A stretch of 63,817 nucleotides of DNA, counting the filler, from Stramenopiles sp. TOSAG23-2 (lineage: Eukaryota): the NCBI GenBank assembly GCA_900128395.1. It is 32 parts of 32 records of this genome, joined end to end, with 100 filler letters (N's around TTAATTAATTAA, not from the genome) between each part and the next. Parts side by side here need not be neighbours in the genome. Positions count along the whole stretch, not along the records: positions 1 to 1,909 come from LT652216.1; 31 more parts are not named here. One strand, 5' to 3'. Of the stretch, positions 1 through 45,831 are shown piece by piece; within the stretch, counting starts at the first letter, position 1; every line of letters begins with the position of its first letter. The notes under the pieces were generated by a model that saw only the letters and a list, made by a program, of their open reading frames with translations, had not been told where the DNA came from and ran no database searches. The translations under genes and the position numbers were made by a program.

Positions 1-475
1 GCTCATTCGATAGCGGTGAGGCTGTCAAAGTGAAAGATCCTGTTGTGAACAACAACCGGTAACTATCCGGATAAAGATCTTGAAGTGCACGGTTGTGGCA
101 AAAAGCCGCGGTTTTGATCACTTTAGCTTGTAGATTTCTACAAGTTTCATTGACCCATTGTGCTTTAAGCCAATTTAATTTTTGTTTCGTGGCAGAAGAA
201 AGTGTAAACTATATATATGTTAATATAAAATTTTTTTACTCCCGTTTATTAACATCTCAAATCAAAAATGATTTAAAAAATTCTCTTATTTATTTATATA
301 TATATGTGTTTTTCTCTTACTCATATGTATATATATATATATATATATAATATATATATATCATGTGATTTACAACTTTATGAAGGAGTAGCTCTTTCGT
401 CTAACTCTTGAAATAAAAATATATGAAATACACACTCACATGTTTCCATTCACACAGTTTTTATATAATATACAT

Positions 476-588: not shown

Positions 589-1317
589 TTATTTCAATTG
601 TAACCTAATTGGCCCACGATATTGTTCTTCAGTATCTAATACCTTGCCTTTTTGTAAAACGTTTAAAATTCCTTTCCGAACAAGACTTCTACTTGCCTGA
701 CGAACAGGATCCATATATTCTCTCCATTTCAAATTCTTATATTTTGGTTTTTTCACAATATTCCTAGGAATTTCTGAGGGTCAGCATGTCTTTCCTTTTG
801 CACGTTTTTTCAACAGCCCCACAATTTCTTGCTCAAGCATTTTCTGCGTAATTATGATTTTTCTTTGAATCATCTCCACCTTCTTTCTCTCTTTATTCAT
901 TTTATCTTTACTTTCAGAATTGCCTTTGTTTTTTTTACCCCCGGTTAATTTAACTTTTTTATATTTATACATGCATTCCATAACAACACGGCCATTATTA
1001 TCAAATTTAACACCTTCTTGTTCCAGCAAGGCAAACTTTCTTTTTACATTTGGTTGTCCTTTTCCCCACTGACCTGAAAATCCACCCAATTGACGATCTG
1101 CTGCTATTACTCTATGTCAAGGCACTTCAGGTGCAAATGGATTATGCCGCATTGCTTGCCCAACTGCTCTTGCACATGAATTAACTGATTTAGCAACATC
1201 TCCATATGTTGATACTTTTCCTTTCGGTATTGTTTTTACATATTCAAATACCTTTTCTCTAAACGGTGTTATTGTGACATGTTTTTGTTGTTGCGACTTT
1301 TCCTTTTTTACCCTCAT
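589..1317 (-). CDS. MGMT: O6-alkylguanine-DNA alkyltransferase (MGMT DNA-binding/active-site domain) fused to a DUF3253-like domain; predicted selenoprotein with in-frame UGA at codons 67 and 179
   Basis: Hand translation gives IPKGKVSTYGDVAK..ARAVGQAMRHNPFAPEVP-[TGA 1119-1117]-HRVIAADRQLGGFSG..LLEQEG, then KTC-[TGA 783-781]-PSEIPR..WREYMDPVRQASRSLVRKGILNVLQKGKVLD..RGPIRLQLK-TAA. ORFs 1117..1317 and 781..1089 are in the same frame. Confidence 0.88.
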
Positions 1318-4018: not shown

Positions 4019-5398
4019 TTGAAAGCACAACCATCCCGCCCATATAAAAAATTCTCTTATGCTCGTCCAAATATTCGCAGCGTCAAGCCTCGTCTCTCTG
4101 CACCAGGTGTGAAAAATTTGAAATTTATGATTCGAGGAAGCAATTTTGGTCCACACTTATCGAAAGTTATTGTTCATATCGGGAAACAAGAATGTAAAAA
4201 AGTGCATTTCTTCAATGACAGTGCCCTTTCGTGTATATTGCCACAAGTTCGCGTTGGTAAATTTAATGTTAAAGTTACTGTTGGTGGACAACCAAATAAA
4301 AAGAATAAATTTTTCGAAAGTTCCCCTCCAGAAATTGAAACGATCACTCCACAATCTGGTCCAAGTCGCGGTGGATACCCAATCACAATTAAAGGTATTA
4401 ACTTCATCAAGGATGCACATGCAGAACATGTAGTCAGTGTAAGTGGTTTGAAATGCAGCAATGTATTGGTATCTAGCAATACTGAACTTACATGCAATGT
4501 ACCAAAAGGTATTGCTGGCATCCAGAACATTACAGTAATTGTCAATGGTAATCCATCCGAGCCAAGCCAAGACTTTGCATATAATTCACCATTCGTAGCA
4601 GGCTCGGTGCCTAACCATGGTAATAAAGTTGGTGGACAAAGAATTATTATCAAAGGTAGAGACTTCGGCAGCCGTAGACCTAAGAAAGGTGATCTTGTTG
4701 CTTCAGTTGGCGGTAAAGCATGTCAAAAAACGAAATGGATCTCTGATTCAGAAGTTGAATGCGTAGTACCAGAAGGTGAAGGTGCATGTAAAGCAATTCA
4801 AGTACGTGTTGGCAAAAAGGATAGTCAAGTTAGCCGTATAAATACAATGTGGCACTATGACAATCCAGCTGATGCTGAGAAAAGTTTTGTTCAAGATTTA
4901 GATGAAAACAATTTTGATAAGATCGTAAACGGTGATTCACCAGTATTGATCAAATTCTGCACGCCAAAATGCGAACATTGCAGAGCATTGAAACCAATTT
5001 ACAAAGAATTAGCAAGATTGTTGAAATGTAAAAAAGTTGTTATCGCAGCTGTACGAGCAGATACACACCCAGCATTAGCAAAGAGATTTGCATTGAATGA
5101 TTTCCCAAGATTGTTATGGTTCCCAGAGGGTAGAACACAACCACAAGGTGAATTCCAAGGCAATGCTAAGGCTGAATATTTGTTAGGATGGTTAGCAAAT
5201 CAAATGGGAGTCAAAAATCAATTATACGGTAATGGCAAAGTACCAGTTGACGCAACGCAGCCACAAGATCAAGAAAGACCATTGGCTGGTGGCTTGATTG
5301 GAGCTGTACAGAGTGGCATGAAACGATGTAGTGCAAAAAAAGAAGCACCTGCACCATCGCAAATGGAAAAACTACCTACAGACATCAAAAGACTTTAA
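4019..5398 (+). CDS. Protein with three IPT/TIG domains and a C-terminal thioredoxin/PDI-like domain; 5' partial
   Basis: Repeated P-x-I-x-x-I-x-P-x-x-G-x3-GG..ITIKGxNF..C..C-x-x-P TIG pattern, followed by LDENNFDKIVNGDSPVLIKFCTPKCEHCRALKPIY..FPRLLWFP (Trx fold, CEHC). Confidence 0.8.
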   Translation: MKAQPSRPYKKFSYARPNIRSVKPRLSAPGVKNLKFMIRGSNFGPHLSKVIVHIGKQECKKVHFFNDSALSCILPQVRVGKFNVKVTVGGQPNKKNKFFESSPPEIETITPQSGPSRGGYPITIKGINFIKDAHAEHVVSVSGLKCSNVLVSSNTELTCNVPKGIAGIQNITVIVNGNPSEPSQDFAYNSPFVAGSVPNHGNKVGGQRIIIKGRDFGSRRPKKGDLVASVGGKACQKTKWISDSEVECVVPEGEGACKAIQVRVGKKDSQVSRINTMWHYDNPADAEKSFVQDLDENNFDKIVNGDSPVLIKFCTPKCEHCRALKPIYKELARLLKCKKVVIAAVRADTHPALAKRFALNDFPRLLWFPEGRTQPQGEFQGNAKAEYLLGWLANQMGVKNQLYGNGKVPVDATQPQDQERPLAGGLIGAVQSGMKRCSAKKEAPAPSQMEKLPTDIKRL

Positions 5399-14417: not shown

Positions 14418-15323
14418 ATGGCACGGAAACATAATCCATTCAATTTTAGTAATATTAAAAATTTTCGGCTTGTGGCACCTACTTCTTTGACAGGGAATAA
14501 AATACAGTTGTATAGGACAGCAAATTTTTCAAACATCCATGAAGCAGACTTATTTAGTAATATTAAAAATTTTCGGCTTGTGGCACCTACTTCTTTGACA
14601 GGGAATAAAATACAGTTGTATAGGACAGCAAATTTTTCAAACATCCATGAAGCAGACTTAAACAAATTGGAGAAAGAAATAGGTTTAAAAACATACATTG
14701 ATTTGAGGTCGAATACTTCATATTGGGAAAAAAATGAAATGGAAAAGCTTGTAGAGAAATTAGCTCCTCGTAATATTCAATATGTTAACGTGGCTGTTGC
14801 GACTGATTTACAACCTTTGGATTCTTCAAAATTTCCTGAAGTCAAAGCATATGGGAAAACAAATGCAAGATATGATCGATATAATGATCCGACCAGACAT
14901 GCTGATTTTCTTGCAAAATACATGGTATTTGTTTGTAAATATAACGGGCACCTGATAAGAGAAGTATTGCATACCATGTCCATACCATCTAATTATCCAT
15001 TAGTTTTTGGTTGCCATGCTGGAAAAGATCGGACTGGATTGATTGCTGCTTTAGTTTTAAGTTTATGTGGATTAAATAAGCAAGATATAATGGATGATTA
15101 TATTTTAAGTAACGAAGGGTGGGGAGAAATGGATTCAAATACAAAAACATCAAGTGTATATCCAGAGAGCTTAAATGCAGTCTTTGAATGGATTGAAAGT
15201 AATCATGGAAGCGTGACTAATTATTGTAATAGTATTGGCATTACAAATGCTGAAATTCAAAATATTGTGAAAATATGTACGCATAGTGATATTATAAATG
15301 GATTACCATTGGCAAAGTTGTAG
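14418..15323 (+). CDS. Protein-tyrosine/lipid phosphatase (Y_phosphatase3, IphP/PtpB-like), C-terminal PTS1 -AKL
   Basis: NFR..LYRTA..IDLRS..PLVFGCHAGKDRTG (CX5R)..DYILSN; ends LAKL. Contains an exact in-frame 108-bp duplication. Confidence 0.88.
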   Translation: MARKHNPFNFSNIKNFRLVAPTSLTGNKIQLYRTANFSNIHEADLFSNIKNFRLVAPTSLTGNKIQLYRTANFSNIHEADLNKLEKEIGLKTYIDLRSNTSYWEKNEMEKLVEKLAPRNIQYVNVAVATDLQPLDSSKFPEVKAYGKTNARYDRYNDPTRHADFLAKYMVFVCKYNGHLIREVLHTMSIPSNYPLVFGCHAGKDRTGLIAALVLSLCGLNKQDIMDDYILSNEGWGEMDSNTKTSSVYPESLNAVFEWIESNHGSVTNYCNSIGITNAEIQNIVKICTHSDIINGLPLAKL

Positions 15324-22050: not shown

Positions 22051-23950
22051 TTGACTTGCAAATGACTTCTAGAGTGGTATTTGCCATTTTGAATATTATC
22101 TTCTATTTCATTGCTGAATATTTCTAAACTATCATGCTCACTATCATACTCTCGTATTTGATCAAAGCAATATTTGATGCTAACCCGTGTTATTTCAGCT
22201 GAATCAACAAGTAAATTTCCATCAGCTTTCAATCTTGCAGTTCTTCGCATAATCGATTGGTATAATTGATAAGATGCAGTAAAATGTGGATTGTACCTAC
22301 GCGGAAAGACATCTGGATCTGTACATGGTGCACCATCTAAATTCAAAAATTCTCCTCTGCTCATTACAAAATGGCGCTGGCCACTTCCAAATAATAATCG
22401 TTTTCCAGCATTTATTACATTCATTAACCCGGAAATTAAACTTCTATTTTCTTTCTCTTCTTTCTGATTTTCCCAATACATCTTAGCTTTCAAATCAAAT
22501 GCTTTCATCCATTTTTCATACCTTGAAGCAGTGAAGAAAATCTTTCTAGGAATTAAACGATAAGCATCGTCGTGATAATTTGCATCTAATTTTCTATTAT
22601 GAGTCAAATATGTATAATACCTGTGTTGAATGTGATCATATTGTTTTACATTGTCACCATACAAAAATCCTAATATCGTAAACATTACTAAGCCATCATA
22701 ATTATACATTTCATGAGAATGGAACGCATCTTCAATAATTTTTCGAATGAGTTGAGTGTAATGTGGTGGCTTTAAATTGTTGGTCAATTGAACAATGTGA
22801 TTTGAAATTGTTGGGAAATCAATCTCTGGTTCATCTAGGCCATTCCTCCACTTCTCTAGTTCATTCAAAGCAGAAAAAAATGCGGTGGCTTCAAATTGTT
22901 GGTCAATTGAACAATGTGATTTGAAATTGTTGGGAAATCAATCTCTGGTTCATCTAGGCCATTCCTCCACTTCTCTAGTTCATTCAAAGCAGAAAAATCA
23001 TATACAAAGGAAGACCTATAATTTTCGCATAATATTTTTCTTTCCAGTTTAAGAACTGCTTTTGCAAGGAACACGGGCGTATTAATCTTCAATAAATATT
23101 TTCTAGATTTGCTCTTTCGTTTGCTTTTGAACGTAGTTAAATCATCATCCAGTAGCAATTTTGTCTCCAGAGTAAACAAATGCCTCAACGATTGGGTTAA
23201 TCCTGATAGTTTAAGAACTGCTTTTGCAAGGAACACGGGCGTATTAATCTTCAATAAATATTTTCTAGATTTGCTCTTTCGTTTGCTTTTGAACGTAGTT
23301 AAATCATCATCCAGTAGCAATTTTGTCTCCAGAGTAAACAAATGCCTCAACGATTGGGTTAATCCTGATCTCCGTTTGAAAGCTTTTCGTTCTTCAACTG
23401 CATCATATCGAAGCTTCAATGCCACTACTATCGCAATCATCATGATTATAATAGATGAAATTAACCATGGGATTAGATAATTTTTGCCATTATCATCTTC
23501 ACCATCGCCAGTAATACCCTTGTCAATATACATAAAAATACATCCACATAAACCTATTAATGAGCTAGCACTATGCAATGGAATAATCCAAGGAACGCTG
23601 GACGGATTTCGATGAAATATAGCAAAGTAACAAAGGTTCCATATAACTATGACAGCAAATATAATAATTGCCCCGATTGCGACCACATTGATATCATCGT
23701 CTTCACCATTATGGAATATCAGGCACAGGAATAGAAATATTGTAGATAAAACGTGTGACATTAAATTATATAATTCTGTATATTGAATATCGTGACCAAC
23801 ATCTGTTGTTTCTGCCCTTACTGTTTCTTCCGCACCGCGATTTTTAGTTGATTCTGCAAGTGTTGTAAATAGAAAATAAACCATTCCAATTATAACACAC
23901 GTTAATAAATCTTTTGCTGGAATTCTACCGGTGTAATCAGGCTGAGATGG
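22051..23950 (-). CDS. Hypothetical multi-pass membrane protein, partial at both ends; probably one gene split by duplication artefacts
   Basis: ORFs 22865..23884 and 21999..22868 share a duplicated 120-bp segment (NELEKWRNG..PPH). Several TM helices are present. Confidence 0.65.
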
Positions 23951-37046: not shown

Positions 37047-37254
37047 AATCCAGCAAGTAATACTGCAATGATGTTCTGCAATGATGCTGCAATATTGTAA
37101 AAGATGGAATCCAGCAATTAATACTGCAATGATGCTCTGCAATGATGCTGCAATATTGTAAAAGATGGAATCCAGCAATTAATACTGCAATGATGCTCTG
37201 CAATGATGCTGCAATATTGTAAAAGACGGAATCCAGCAATTAATACTGCAATGA
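37047..37254. repeat. 61-bp minisatellite, about 3.4 copies
   Basis: AATCCAGCAATTAATACTGCAATGATGCTCTGCAATGATGCTGCAATATTGTAAAAGATGG starts at 37047, 37108, 37169 and 37230. Confidence 0.9.
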
Positions 37255-37255
37255 G

Positions 37256-37435
37256 GCCAGATAGCAAGCCAGATAGCAAGCCAGATAGCAAGCCAGATAG
37301 CAAGCCAGATAGCAAGCCAGATAGCAAGCCAGATAGCAAGCCAGATAGCAAGCCAGATAGCAAGCCAGATAGCAAGCCAGATAGCAAGCCAGATAGCAAG
37401 CCAGATAGCAAGCCAGATAGCAAGCCAGATAGCAA
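37256..37435. repeat. 12-bp tandem repeat (GCCAGATAGCAA)x15
   Basis: Perfect array read directly from the sequence. Confidence 0.95.
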
Positions 37436-38122
37436 GGCTATTATACTACCAAACAAAAGAAGTGAAAAGAAGAATTTCAAGCCTGCCCTAAGGCCTGCCC
37501 TAAGGCCTGGCAAGAATAAGAAAATGAATGAGTGGAGCAAAGAAGTATTTAGTGCCATGAAGTGCCAAACAAAGGCCAAGAAGGCAGCCGCCCAATAATA
37601 ATAACACGGCCATACCATAGAGAATATCTATATATATATATATCGATAGATAGATATATATCTGAAATAGAAATAGTTTCAATCATTATTATCATTACAT
37701 ATTGTATATATATATAAATTAGATATACAATATTATACAATACTTTCATCACATATAATATATATACAATATATACATACAGTAATTGTTTGTTTTTTTT
37801 TTTTTTTTAACAAAAACAACAACAAACCAAAATAATATAATAATAATATGGCATCATTTACTGCACAACCACCAACTAAAAGTGAAGATTGGGAGTCGAA
37901 TTTAAAACGTTTAAGGAAACTATTAAAATTAANNNNNNNNNNNNNNNNNNNNNNNNNNNNNNNNNNNNNNNNNNNNTTAATTAATTAANNNNNNNNNNNN
38001 NNNNNNNNNNNNNNNNNNNNNNNNNNNNNNNNGCAAAACATTTTCACTTGTTGGAATCATTTTGTTTTTCACAATTGTTGCTTCCGAGGGCAGATTAGGA
38101 AGACGTAATTTATTTACAAAAC

Positions 38123-44142: not shown

Positions 44143-44883
44143 ATGGAACAATTAACTGTAAGTGAAGTTGTTGAACAGAGAAAGTTTAAAGAAATAAAAA
44201 AACTTTTAGATTTAAACTTGGAAACACAATTATTACAAAAATATCAATACATTAATGTCCATGATATTGATCGGACAAATATTGCAGACATAAAATTATT
44301 ATTGGATCTTCATGTGAAAAGGTATAATATTCACAATCGTTTTTCTATGTCTTCTACTTTAGTGCGAGGTAGGAAAACCGCAAATGATATTTTTATAACT
44401 CCATTGGAAGTTGCAAAATTACATATTGATATTGTAGATAAACACACAGGAAGAAATAAAAAATTAGTGTGGTATGATCCATTTTGTGCAACTGGTAGAT
44501 ATTATAACAACTTTCCGCAACATGTTAAAAAATACTGGAGTGAAATAACTGATGGAAAAGACTTTTTTTATTTTAATAAAAAGGTAGATATTATATGTAG
44601 CAATCCACCATATTCCATATTAAAGGATGTAATTAATAAGGCAATTGAACTGAGGCCTAATATAATTAGTTTTTTAATTCATCATCATAATTTTTCGCAT
44701 CAGAGAATATCCACGTTTAATGAAAGTGGTTATGAATTAATTCACTTGCACATGTTAAAAATACGTCCATGGTACGCTAACAGCTACATAATTGTTTTTG
44801 CGAAGGTGGAGAATGAAGAAGCTGGAACAAGACAAGCTGACTGGATTAGATTTGGATATACACCAAGAGATTTTAAAGTTTAA
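44143..44883 (+). CDS. Phage/virus-type DNA amino-methyltransferase (probably N6-adenine)
   Basis: DIFITP, motif I WYDPFCATG, DFF, motif IV DIICSNPPYS. Confidence 0.75.
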   Translation: MEQLTVSEVVEQRKFKEIKKLLDLNLETQLLQKYQYINVHDIDRTNIADIKLLLDLHVKRYNIHNRFSMSSTLVRGRKTANDIFITPLEVAKLHIDIVDKHTGRNKKLVWYDPFCATGRYYNNFPQHVKKYWSEITDGKDFFYFNKKVDIICSNPPYSILKDVINKAIELRPNIISFLIHHHNFSHQRISTFNESGYELIHLHMLKIRPWYANSYIIVFAKVENEEAGTRQADWIRFGYTPRDFKV

Positions 44884-44889
44884 ATTAAT

Positions 44890-45831
44890 TTAATTTTTTA
44901 TATACACTAACAATGTCTGATGAACCTTCATGCTATATCCAAACCTTTTTGTTTGGCCTATTAATTTTTGAATCGGTGTTATCTTTTTTGATGATAAAAT
45001 AACTTTATCAAACGCAGTTAAACCCAACTCTAAAAATATTCTCTCAGTTTCATATGTTAAGTTGTAAAAAATATGATTTCTTCTAAAATTACCAACTACA
45101 ACACAATATTTTGTTCCTTTTTTACCTTTTCTAACAACTCTTTTCCAAATTTGTTTGTATTTTATTAAAAAATCTTCCCATGCTTTAATGTGACTTAGGC
45201 CATTTCCAGCATATTTTTCCAAGTTCCAGTATGGAGGACATGTGATCAATCCGTCGTGTTTGGGAATTTTCTTTATACTACTATCTCCATAAATGTTATA
45301 AACACCAAAATGATTTAAAGCAAATGTAATTGCTTGGTTGGAACAATCAAATCCAATATATTTCTTGTTTTTTTCAATAGCAACTTTATGTCGCTCTCCC
45401 CAACCAGCAAACGGATCAAATATAACAGTTGCATCACGTAAATAAAATTCTATTATAAACATGGCCACGTCTAATGGAAAAGGACTAAACGACGCTCGTG
45501 AAGATTTGGTATAATCTCTTTCTCTAACTTGATTTATATTGCTTTTATTCACATCAAACACAGAAATAGGTAAATGTTTGTATGATTGATAATTATAAAC
45601 ACTAAAAAAACGTGTTGGTTTAAAATTTATCATCATGTCTAAATAGTTTTTTACTTCACTTATAGAATTCCTACTTTTAATGATATCATGCACATTTAAA
45701 TTTTCTATTTCATCATTGTCCATACGCACCAGTTCTCTTTGTAAATATACTTTTAATTCATTAATTTTGTTTTGTTCAATTACCTCTTGAACATACAAAT
45801 CTCTTAAATTATCCATATTTTTTGTTGTCAT
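44890..45831 (-). CDS. Phage/virus-type DNA amino-methyltransferase (N4-cytosine or N6-adenine)
   Basis: FSPFP..IIEFYL, motif I IFDPFAGWGER, YIGFD, motif IV LITCPPYWNLEKY, CVVVGNFR, K.HQ.LLV. Confidence 0.82.
   Translation of the reverse strand: MTTKNMDNLRDLYVQEVIEQNKINELKVYLQRELVRMDNDEIENLNVHDIIKSRNSISEVKNYLDMMINFKPTRFFSVYNYQSYKHLPISVFDVNKSNINQVRERDYTKSSRASFSPFPLDVAMFIIEFYLRDATVIFDPFAGWGERHKVAIEKNKKYIGFDCSNQAITFALNHFGVYNIYGDSSIKKIPKHDGLITCPPYWNLEKYAGNGLSHIKAWEDFLIKYKQIWKRVVRKGKKGTKYCVVVGNFRRNHIFYNLTYETERIFLELGLTAFDKVILSSKKITPIQKLIGQTKRFGYSMKVHQTLLVYIKN

What the first reader, a model, noticed from the sequence alone, without database searches (positions are those of the whole stretch)
589..1317. 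Two-selenocysteine MGMT-DUF3253 fusion: a candidate new eukaryotic DNA-repair selenoprotein
Seen: the ORF track splits this gene, but it is one frame interrupted only by two TGA codons. TGA-1 (codon 67) replaces the catalytic Cys of the alkyltransferase PCHRV motif, giving PUHRV. TGA-2 (codon 179) replaces the conserved Cys of the DUF3253 T-x-C-P-S-E motif, giving T-C-U-P-S-E, and the rest of that domain (WR..M.PVR..QKG..RGPIRL) is intact up to TAA. Two nonsense mutations both hitting conserved Cys by chance is unlikely. TGA is a normal stop in other genes here (25614, 33121, 43257), and Cys and Trp use TGY and TGG. Known: MGMT is a suicide enzyme that accepts an alkyl group on that residue, and Sec is a stronger nucleophile than Cys. 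I recall Sec forms of MGMT from prokaryotic metagenome surveys, but not a Sec-DUF3253 or this fusion; this recollection is unverified. Inference: DUF3253 has a reactive Cys/Sec and works in alkylation repair, either as a second alkyl acceptor or as a redox partner.
Basis: partly seen in the sequence, partly recalled or inferred. Interest (0 to 1): 0.93.

Follow-up and report, generated by a model that had tools for sequence, protein, structure and literature searches.

The report
Two-selenocysteine DNA-repair protein in marine protists
Several marine single-celled eukaryotes carry a DNA-repair gene whose two internal 'stop' codons almost certainly encode selenium-containing selenocysteine, and one of them sits in a small, unstudied DNA-binding-type domain not previously reported to use selenium.

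Summary
Both TGAs are kept in 8 of 8 full-length homologous loci from six lineages (33-98% identity), while third codon positions have drifted. Each lineage has an AUGA...UGA SECIS-like hairpin 35-89 nt after the stop (0 of 20 control 3' ends), though Rfam detects none. RNA-library contigs carry both TGAs unspliced. TGA still serves as a stop; Trp and Cys use TGG and TGY. A selenoprotein reading is about 95% likely; Sec machinery could not be checked. Sec-MGMT is already described in bacteria and algae. Sec in DUF3253, and the double-Sec fusion, were not found in the papers searched. DUF3253 is a basic winged helix. Its bacterial members lie beside or are fused to photolyases, never MGMT (0 of 106 loci), so it links to DNA damage, not specifically alkylation. 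The fusions always pair Sec with an adjacent Cys, suggesting a redox-active Cys-Sec switch on a DNA-binding module; a second alkyl acceptor is the main rival.

The parts
589..1317 (-). CDS of a 242-aa MGMT-DUF3253 fusion with two in-frame TGA (Sec) codons, ending in TAA
1009..1266 (-). O6-alkylguanine alkyltransferase C-terminal (DNA_binding_1) domain, residues 18-103; no N-terminal AGT domain detected
1117..1119 (-). TGA-1, U67, at the catalytic Cys of P-C-H-R
862..957 (-). Lys-rich, low-confidence, poorly conserved linker (residues 121-152)
595..840 (-). DUF3253 winged-helix domain, residues 160-241, pI about 10
781..786 (-). Vicinal Cys178 (TGC)-Sec179 (TGA) pair between strand 1 and helix 2 of the winged helix
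472..555 (-). SECIS-like element in the 3' UTR: helix I, A-UGA-U core (546-542), 12-bp helix II, A-rich apical loop, UGAG (486-483)
   Evidence: not detected by Rfam

Best explanation
A eukaryotic DNA-repair selenoprotein with two Sec residues. Step 1 (strong inference, about 0.95): one 3'-UTR SECIS recodes both UGAs as Sec. Step 2 (inferred, about 0.8): the N-terminal domain flips O6-alkylguanine into its pocket and transfers the alkyl group irreversibly to the U67 selenolate, as engineered Sec-AGT does. Step 3 (fold predicted, function inferred, about 0.45): the C-terminal DUF3253, from a bacterial family that travels with photolyases, is a basic winged-helix DNA-binding module that takes the place of the missing N-terminal domain in holding the enzyme on DNA. 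Its Cys178-Sec179 pair, at the start of the helix-turn-helix, cycles between a reduced form and a selenylsulfide. It would act as a redox switch on DNA binding, or keep U67 reduced, in sunlit oxidising surface water. The confidence given is for the whole chain.
For: TGA at both sites in 8 of 8 full-length loci from six lineages at 37-60% identity to the window protein; site 1 also in the cut-off L009. In the 4 between-lineage pairs, identity after each TGA is 0.69-0.91 at codon position 2 but 0.38-0.56 at position 3. In 9 fusion CDSs, Trp is TGG 24 times and Cys is TGY 36 times; the 18 internal TGAs fall only at the two sites. A SECIS-like hairpin lies within 110 nt of the stop in 6 of 6 lineages, all with AAUGAY, and the two pairs closing the core change compensatorily. 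Controls: 9-59 of 500 shuffles per lineage, 0 of 20 other window 3' ends, 8 of 533 window tiles. An oligo-dT contig spans 408-1309 and polyA contigs cover each TGA, with no joint. AGT residues Y38, R50, N59, H68 and E101 are invariant in 8 of 8 aligned sequences (roles and recalled). Sec-substituted human AGT repairs MNNG damage (PMC4150793, passages). AGTs lacking the N-domain but fused to other modules are active (PMC10779285, passages). The model's C-domain matches 2ns0 (Z 14.6, rmsd 1.7, 81 residues), then generic winged helices and Z-alpha domains (Z up to 8.7). A Cys precedes the Sec in all six lineages and in two Cys-MGMT lineages whose database proteins end exactly there. In bacteria a Cys-Cys pair is rare: 8 of 81 in the pattern-selected set and 0 of 26 in the profile-selected set. 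Photolyase-type genes lie within 4 kb in 16 of 80 bacterial loci, plus one more fused; fusions are in L075 and L036. In the profile-selected set they lie within 1.5 kb in 4 of 23 non-seed loci, against 2-3 such genes per 2.4-6 Mb genome.
Against: No genome was held, so tRNA-Sec, eEFSec, SBP2 and SecS were not checked. Rfam finds no SECIS in the window or in 5 loci. The window's hairpin is no more stable than shuffles (z -0.29; only L004 is, z -4.95). Only 2 of 6 cores fit the published UGAN/KGAW consensus, and L005 lacks the apical AA. My SECIS rule was set after looking at the data. Within the window's own species, 6 of 8 coding polymorphisms are non-synonymous, close to the 573:147 site ratio. 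RNA data are contigs and could include DNA. The DUF3253 Cys is not invariant: 20 of 26 bacterial members have it (17 of 23 without seeds); the others have S, D or E, typical helix-capping residues. 12 of the 17 photolyase-linked loci in the first sample are Bdellovibrionota or group with them, so they are not independent. Nothing tests redox activity or DNA binding.
Confidence: 0.5

Rival explanations
1. Same selenoprotein, but U179 is a second suicide acceptor. The winged helix places the selenolate at the DNA backbone and takes the alkyl group from a methylphosphotriester or another adduct. The protein would then be a zinc-free functional analogue of two-acceptor Ada.
For: DUF3253 and MGMT are fused in both orders; P0139 is DUF3253(Cys)-MGMT(Cys). 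Sec appears to be kept at site 2 where site 1 is Cys (inferred from where the proteins end, DNA not seen). The residue sits at the start of HTH helix 2, a position that often faces backbone phosphates (recalled). Ada's two-acceptor design is described in PMC10779285.
Against: No MGMT near bacterial DUF3253 in 0 of 80 and 0 of 26 loci. None of Ada's Cys4-zinc motifs is present. The added vicinal Cys suggests a two-electron redox pair rather than a single acceptor. P0139 is one sequence, and neither tree resolves whether it is a separate fusion.
Confidence: 0.2
2. Same selenoprotein, but the Cys-Sec pair binds a metal or only caps the helix; the domain is an accessory DNA-binding module.
For: 6 of 26 bacterial members have S, D or E at the site. 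DUF3253 is often fused to or beside the Cys-rich DUF2256 (17 of 80 loci).
Against: Sec is kept across six lineages with saturated third codon positions. Known Sec residues are almost always catalytic or redox-active (general knowledge).
Confidence: 0.2
3. UGA is read as Trp or Cys by a changed code or by readthrough, giving an ATL-type PWHRV protein.
For: Database proteins P0002-P0004 show W at both sites. ATLs have PWHRV and no N-domain.
Against: TGA occurs only at the two family-Cys sites while 24 Trp codons are TGG and 36 Cys codons are TGY. A GRIP golgin ends at TGA in the window, and L005/L006 appear to end on TGA. Fragments in the same clusters stop at the sites. Trp at the DUF3253 site occurs in 0 of 26 bacterial members. 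The SECIS-like element would have no purpose.
Confidence: 0.03
4. Pseudogene or assembly artefact with two nonsense mutations.
For: Polymorphisms in the window's species are mostly non-synonymous, 6 of 8.
Against: The same two TGAs occur in six lineages, with purifying selection past both. No frameshift or extra stop in L001-L008. Both TGAs are unchanged in the 4 runs laid. Thirty other codons are one change from TGA and none is hit.
Confidence: 0.01

Closest known systems
Sec-containing methylated-DNA-protein-cysteine methyltransferase (MDP, PF01035) of bacteria and algae (PMC13188914 table passage; PMC2398784 table passage; PMC7539508 passages)
   Same: Sec in a PF01035 alkyltransferase, predicted by genomics.
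   Different: The bacterial family is listed with one Sec. No DUF3253 or second Sec is mentioned in the passages read. The algal paper's figures, supplements and database were not seen and could hold this fusion unlabelled.
AGT fusions lacking the N-terminal domain: Ferroplasma AGTendoV, C. elegans AGT-2 (PMC10779285, passages)
   Same: A catalytic C-terminal AGT domain joined to another DNA-acting module.
   Different: The partner here is a DUF3253 winged helix, and both domains carry Sec.
E. coli Ada (PMC10779285, passages)
   Same: Two reactive chalcogen sites in one alkylation-repair protein.
   Different: Ada's second acceptor is a zinc-bound Cys in an N-terminal domain. Here it is a Cys-Sec pair in a C-terminal winged helix, and acceptor activity is not shown.
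Bacterial DUF3253 (PF11625; PDB 2ns0, Rhodococcus RHA04536)
   Same: Sequence (E 6e-21), fold (Z 14.6) and the x-C-P-S-[ED] motif.
   Different: The bacterial members seen are Cys or non-Cys forms, with no stop inside any of 26 matches in 303 genomes. They are stand-alone or fused to DUF2256 or DPRP photolyase.
Thioredoxin reductase C-terminal Cys-Sec motif (recalled)
   Same: A vicinal Cys-Sec pair able to form a selenylsulfide.
   Different: Unrelated fold and position; an analogy only.

Membership tests
Eukaryotic selenoprotein | In-frame UGA aligned to a conserved Cys of homologues | tested here: met
   Site 1: 238 of 247 database hits have Cys. Site 2: 20 of 26 profile-selected bacterial members, 2ns0 and P0139 have Cys.
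Eukaryotic selenoprotein | UGA and the coding sequence past it conserved across species | tested here: met
   8 of 8 loci, six lineages; codon-position pattern.
Eukaryotic selenoprotein | SECIS element in the 3' UTR | tested here: inconclusive
   Custom scan positive in 6 of 6 lineages and 0 of 20 controls. Rfam negative; KGAW met in 2 of 6; window hairpin z -0.29. SECISearch3 was not available.
Eukaryotic selenoprotein | UGA present in unspliced mRNA and otherwise used as a stop | tested here: met
   RNA-library contigs from 2 studies, no joints (contigs only). TGA ends 4 of 18 window ORFs.
Eukaryotic selenoprotein | Sec machinery in the genome and Se in the protein | not testable with these tools
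   No genome held.
O6-alkylguanine-DNA alkyltransferase | HTH with Arg finger, Tyr, Asn hinge, P-[C/U]-H-R and Glu | tested here: met
   (TIGR00589 above cut-off).
O6-alkylguanine-DNA alkyltransferase | N-terminal RNase-H-like domain (not strictly required per PMC10779285) | tested here: not met
   The matched domain starts at residue 18 and no N-domain family was hit.
O6-alkylguanine-DNA alkyltransferase | Alkyl transfer activity | not testable with these tools
   Needs an assay.
ATL | Trp or another non-Cys residue at the active site | tested here: not met
   The codon is TGA, not TGG.
DUF3253 (PF11625) | Profile above the curated cut-off and 2ns0 fold | tested here: met
   74.2 bits against a cut-off of 22.1; Z 14.6.
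Ada-type phosphotriester methyltransferase | Cys4 zinc site (CRPSC, PCKRC) | tested here: not met
   Motifs absent from the sequence; motifs.
Z-alpha Z-DNA-binding domain | Z-alpha fold with conserved Z-DNA contact residues | tested here: inconclusive
   Fold Z 7-8.7, in the range of generic winged helices; no sequence match; contact residues not examined.

The most novel reading that the evidence does not exclude
DUF3253 is a new selenoprotein domain family, and its Cys/Sec is the active site of an undescribed direct-acting DNA-damage chemistry: a zinc-free adduct acceptor or a redox switch in a winged helix. Bacteria use it beside photolyases; marine protists upgraded it to Sec and fused it to a Sec alkyltransferase.
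Probability: 0.35. Interest if true: 0.88.

Novelty: new variant of a known kind. Interest (0 to 1): 0.72.

Why it matters
New eukaryotic selenoprotein families are rare, and nearly all are thiol oxidoreductases; this one puts Sec in a winged-helix fold. Sec marks the reactive residue, so a domain with a solved structure but no hit in the literature searched gets a testable active site and a link to DNA damage. It also gives a natural case of a single-turnover enzyme spending two selenium atoms per molecule. The gene is split or mistranslated in the protein databases seen, which may explain why it was missed.

Tried and rejected
Rfam scans found no SECIS. My first, ungapped SECIS scan missed the window's element and 3 other lineages; allowing bulges found them. 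A hairpin at about 400-490 was first considered and dropped because its AUGA is Watson-Crick paired. MAFFT could not align the SECIS elements in register, so no covariance model or pair count was made. Two word-based searches for the DUF3253 part returned only near-identical pieces. No DUF3253 relative was found in viral contigs or phage records. The single-sequence fold of the DUF domain was poor (pLDDT 52) and was not used. Domain trees are mostly unresolved, and the one-clade test did not finish. They show only two things: WIN, L002, L003 and L004 DUF domains group (99/91), and two-Sec L004 groups with Cys-MGMT P0147/P0271 (99/97), so Sec and Cys have exchanged at site 1. The number of fusion origins and the donor are not settled. 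The Cys count in the 80 GTDB loci was not used for conservation because the search pattern required Cys. The Atlas on P0139 gave only DUF3253 clusters, scores under 0.9. No other convincing selenoprotein frame was seen in the window (by eye). The host lineage was not determined (eukaryotic only). Two look-ups for an Aureococcus selenoproteome paper, with ids from memory, found nothing. No complex prediction was run.

Full report
Observation. The plus strand at 589-1317 is closed. The minus strand holds one frame from ATG 1317 to TAA 589 with two internal TGA codons, 67 and 179. Read through, the 242-aa protein scores above cut-off for DNA_binding_1 (18-103) and DUF3253 (160-241) and for TIGR00589 ogt. 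It matches solved AGTs and PDB 2ns0. U67 stands in P-x-H-R, where 238 of 247 database hits have Cys; 3 have Trp (the fusion entries), 3 another residue and 3 no motif. The window is eukaryotic: a GRIP golgin and a eukaryote-type nucleotidase, and polyA runs hold the gene. It occurs in marine samples: 20 of 24 listed runs hold it, from 15 studies. No genome was held, and I did not determine the lineage.

Not chance, not a pseudogene. A metagenome scan returned 19 loci: 8 full-length fusions, 1 cut-off fusion relative, 9 Cys-MGMT genes and 1 bacterial DUF3253. All 8 full-length loci have TGA at both sites, and L009 has it at site 1. They fall into six lineages, 37-60% identical to the window protein. 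In the four between-lineage pairs, codon position 2 is 0.69-0.91 identical after each TGA and position 3 only 0.38-0.56, yet the TGAs never change. Against this, 6 of 8 coding polymorphisms within the window's species are non-synonymous, near the neutral site ratio; the numbers are small, and no frameshift or extra stop was listed in the CDS.

Not a changed code. Across 9 fusion CDSs Trp is TGG 24 times and Cys is TGY 36 times, and TGA occurs only at the two sites. Four of 18 window ORFs end in TGA, one of them 28 residues after a C-terminal GRIP domain, and L005/L006 appear to end on TGA themselves. The W seen in P0002-P0004 is a gene-caller reading: their clusters hold fragments that end exactly at the sites. 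The DNA behind P0004 itself was not seen; its nearest relative L003 has TGA.

Transcript and SECIS. An oligo-dT contig covers 408-1309 with no change at either TGA and no joint, and polyA contigs of a second study cover each TGA. These are contigs and cannot exclude DNA in the library. A bulge-tolerant scan finds an AUGA-N...UGA hairpin starting 35-89 nt after the stop in 6 of 6 lineages, at 546-483 in the window. All begin AAUGAY, and the first two pairs vary as A-U, G-C, G-U and G-C, A-U. The same rule fires in 9-59 of 500 shuffles per lineage, 0 of 20 other window 3' ends and 8 of 533 tiles. Free folding gives helix-loop-helix around the AUGA in all six. The caveats are real: the rule was set after seeing the data, Rfam finds nothing, only L004 is more stable than shuffles, only 2 of 6 cores fit the UGAN/KGAW consensus (PMC3753652, passages), and L005 has no apical AA. 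The element is convincing as a set, not in the window alone.

Variants. P0147/P0269 and P0148/P0271/P0272 have Cys at site 1 and end exactly at K-T-C. P0271 comes from a cultured-eukaryote transcriptome and is labelled complete. I infer a TGA there; the DNA was not seen. They group with two-Sec L004 (99/97). P0139 has both domains as Cys forms in the reverse order.

What DUF3253 is. The model (pLDDT 77, pTM 0.45) has two independent domains and a disordered linker. The second domain is a winged helix matching 2ns0 (Z 14.6, rmsd 1.7 over 81 residues), then Z-alpha and other winged helices at generic scores. It is basic (22 K+R against 8 D+E). C178-U179 lies between strand 1 and helix 2. In 80 GTDB loci (selected by a Cys-containing pattern), 16 have a photolyase-type gene in the flanks, one more is fused to the C-terminal part of one, 17 have DUF2256 and none has MGMT. 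Twelve of the 17 photolyase-linked loci are Bdellovibrionota or group with them. A profile search of 303 genomes in three phyla gave 26 matches, 3 of them seeds, none with an internal stop. Twenty have Cys at the site and none has Cys-Cys. Of the 23 non-seed loci, 4 have a photolyase-type gene within 1.5 kb (one a broken fragment) and 6 have DUF2256. Five such genomes hold only 2-3 photolyase-type matches each, so chance adjacency should be about 1% or less (my estimate).

Mechanism. Shown elsewhere: human AGT with Sec at the active site repairs MNNG damage (PMC4150793, passages), and AGTs without the N-domain work as fusions (PMC10779285, passages). Inferred here: U67 is the suicide alkyl acceptor, and DUF3253 supplies extra DNA binding. 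Its Cys-Sec pair, acquired with Sec in these eukaryotes, is most likely a redox switch or reductant (about 0.45). A second, Ada-like acceptor (0.2) and a metal-binding or structural role (0.2) remain open. None of this is tested.

Comparison and novelty. Sec-MGMT is listed for bacteria (PMC13188914 and PMC2398784, table passages) and algae (PMC7539508, passages and section 5). The algal paper names three selenoprotein fusions, none of them this one, and 'DUF' does not occur in its main text. Its figures, supplements and database were not seen and could contain the gene. Full-text searches for DUF3253 and PF11625 returned 0 papers; DUF2256 had 0 occurrences in the 8 papers listed. Searches were seen as listings, with only the papers cited here opened, and showed no report of this fusion. 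Most subscription journals are not covered.

Verdict. A real, conserved double-Sec DNA-repair protein: a new variant of a known selenoprotein that carries what appears to be a new Sec-bearing domain. Interest 0.72.

Noticed in passing
window 1-270 and around 408: A high-copy element lies just past the 3' UTR (depth in the hundreds to thousands against about 9 over the gene, in DNA and RNA runs). L001 has a different flank beyond about 170 nt after the stop, so this may be a polymorphic insertion. No Rfam match.
   Followed up: partly
window 4019-5398 (+): Three IPT/TIG domains fused to a thioredoxin domain with a CEHC motif.
   Followed up: partly
window 44143-44883 (+) and 44890-45831 (-): Two convergent ORFs with amino-methyltransferase-like motifs (NPPY; DPFAG and CPPY), possibly virus-derived DNA methyltransferases (motif reading recalled).
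   Followed up: no
P0165 and P0159: Other MGMT fusions: with an adenosine-deaminase (editase) domain and with D-glutamate cyclase.
   Followed up: partly
L075:2306-4261 and L036:3-833: Alphaproteobacterial DPRP (FeS-type photolyase) fused to DUF3253; DUF2256-DUF3253 fusions also occur in Bdellovibrionota, Actinomycetota and Myxococcota.
   Followed up: yes
window 14418-15323, 22865-23884, 37118-37618: ORFs with exact internal duplications or repeated LSGL units, possibly assembly artefacts. A TTAATTAA linker sits between N runs near 1954-1966.
   Followed up: no
P0002-P0004, P0122-P0138: Protein databases hold this gene either in three fragments or with Trp at both Sec sites, which mimics an ATL.
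   Followed up: yes
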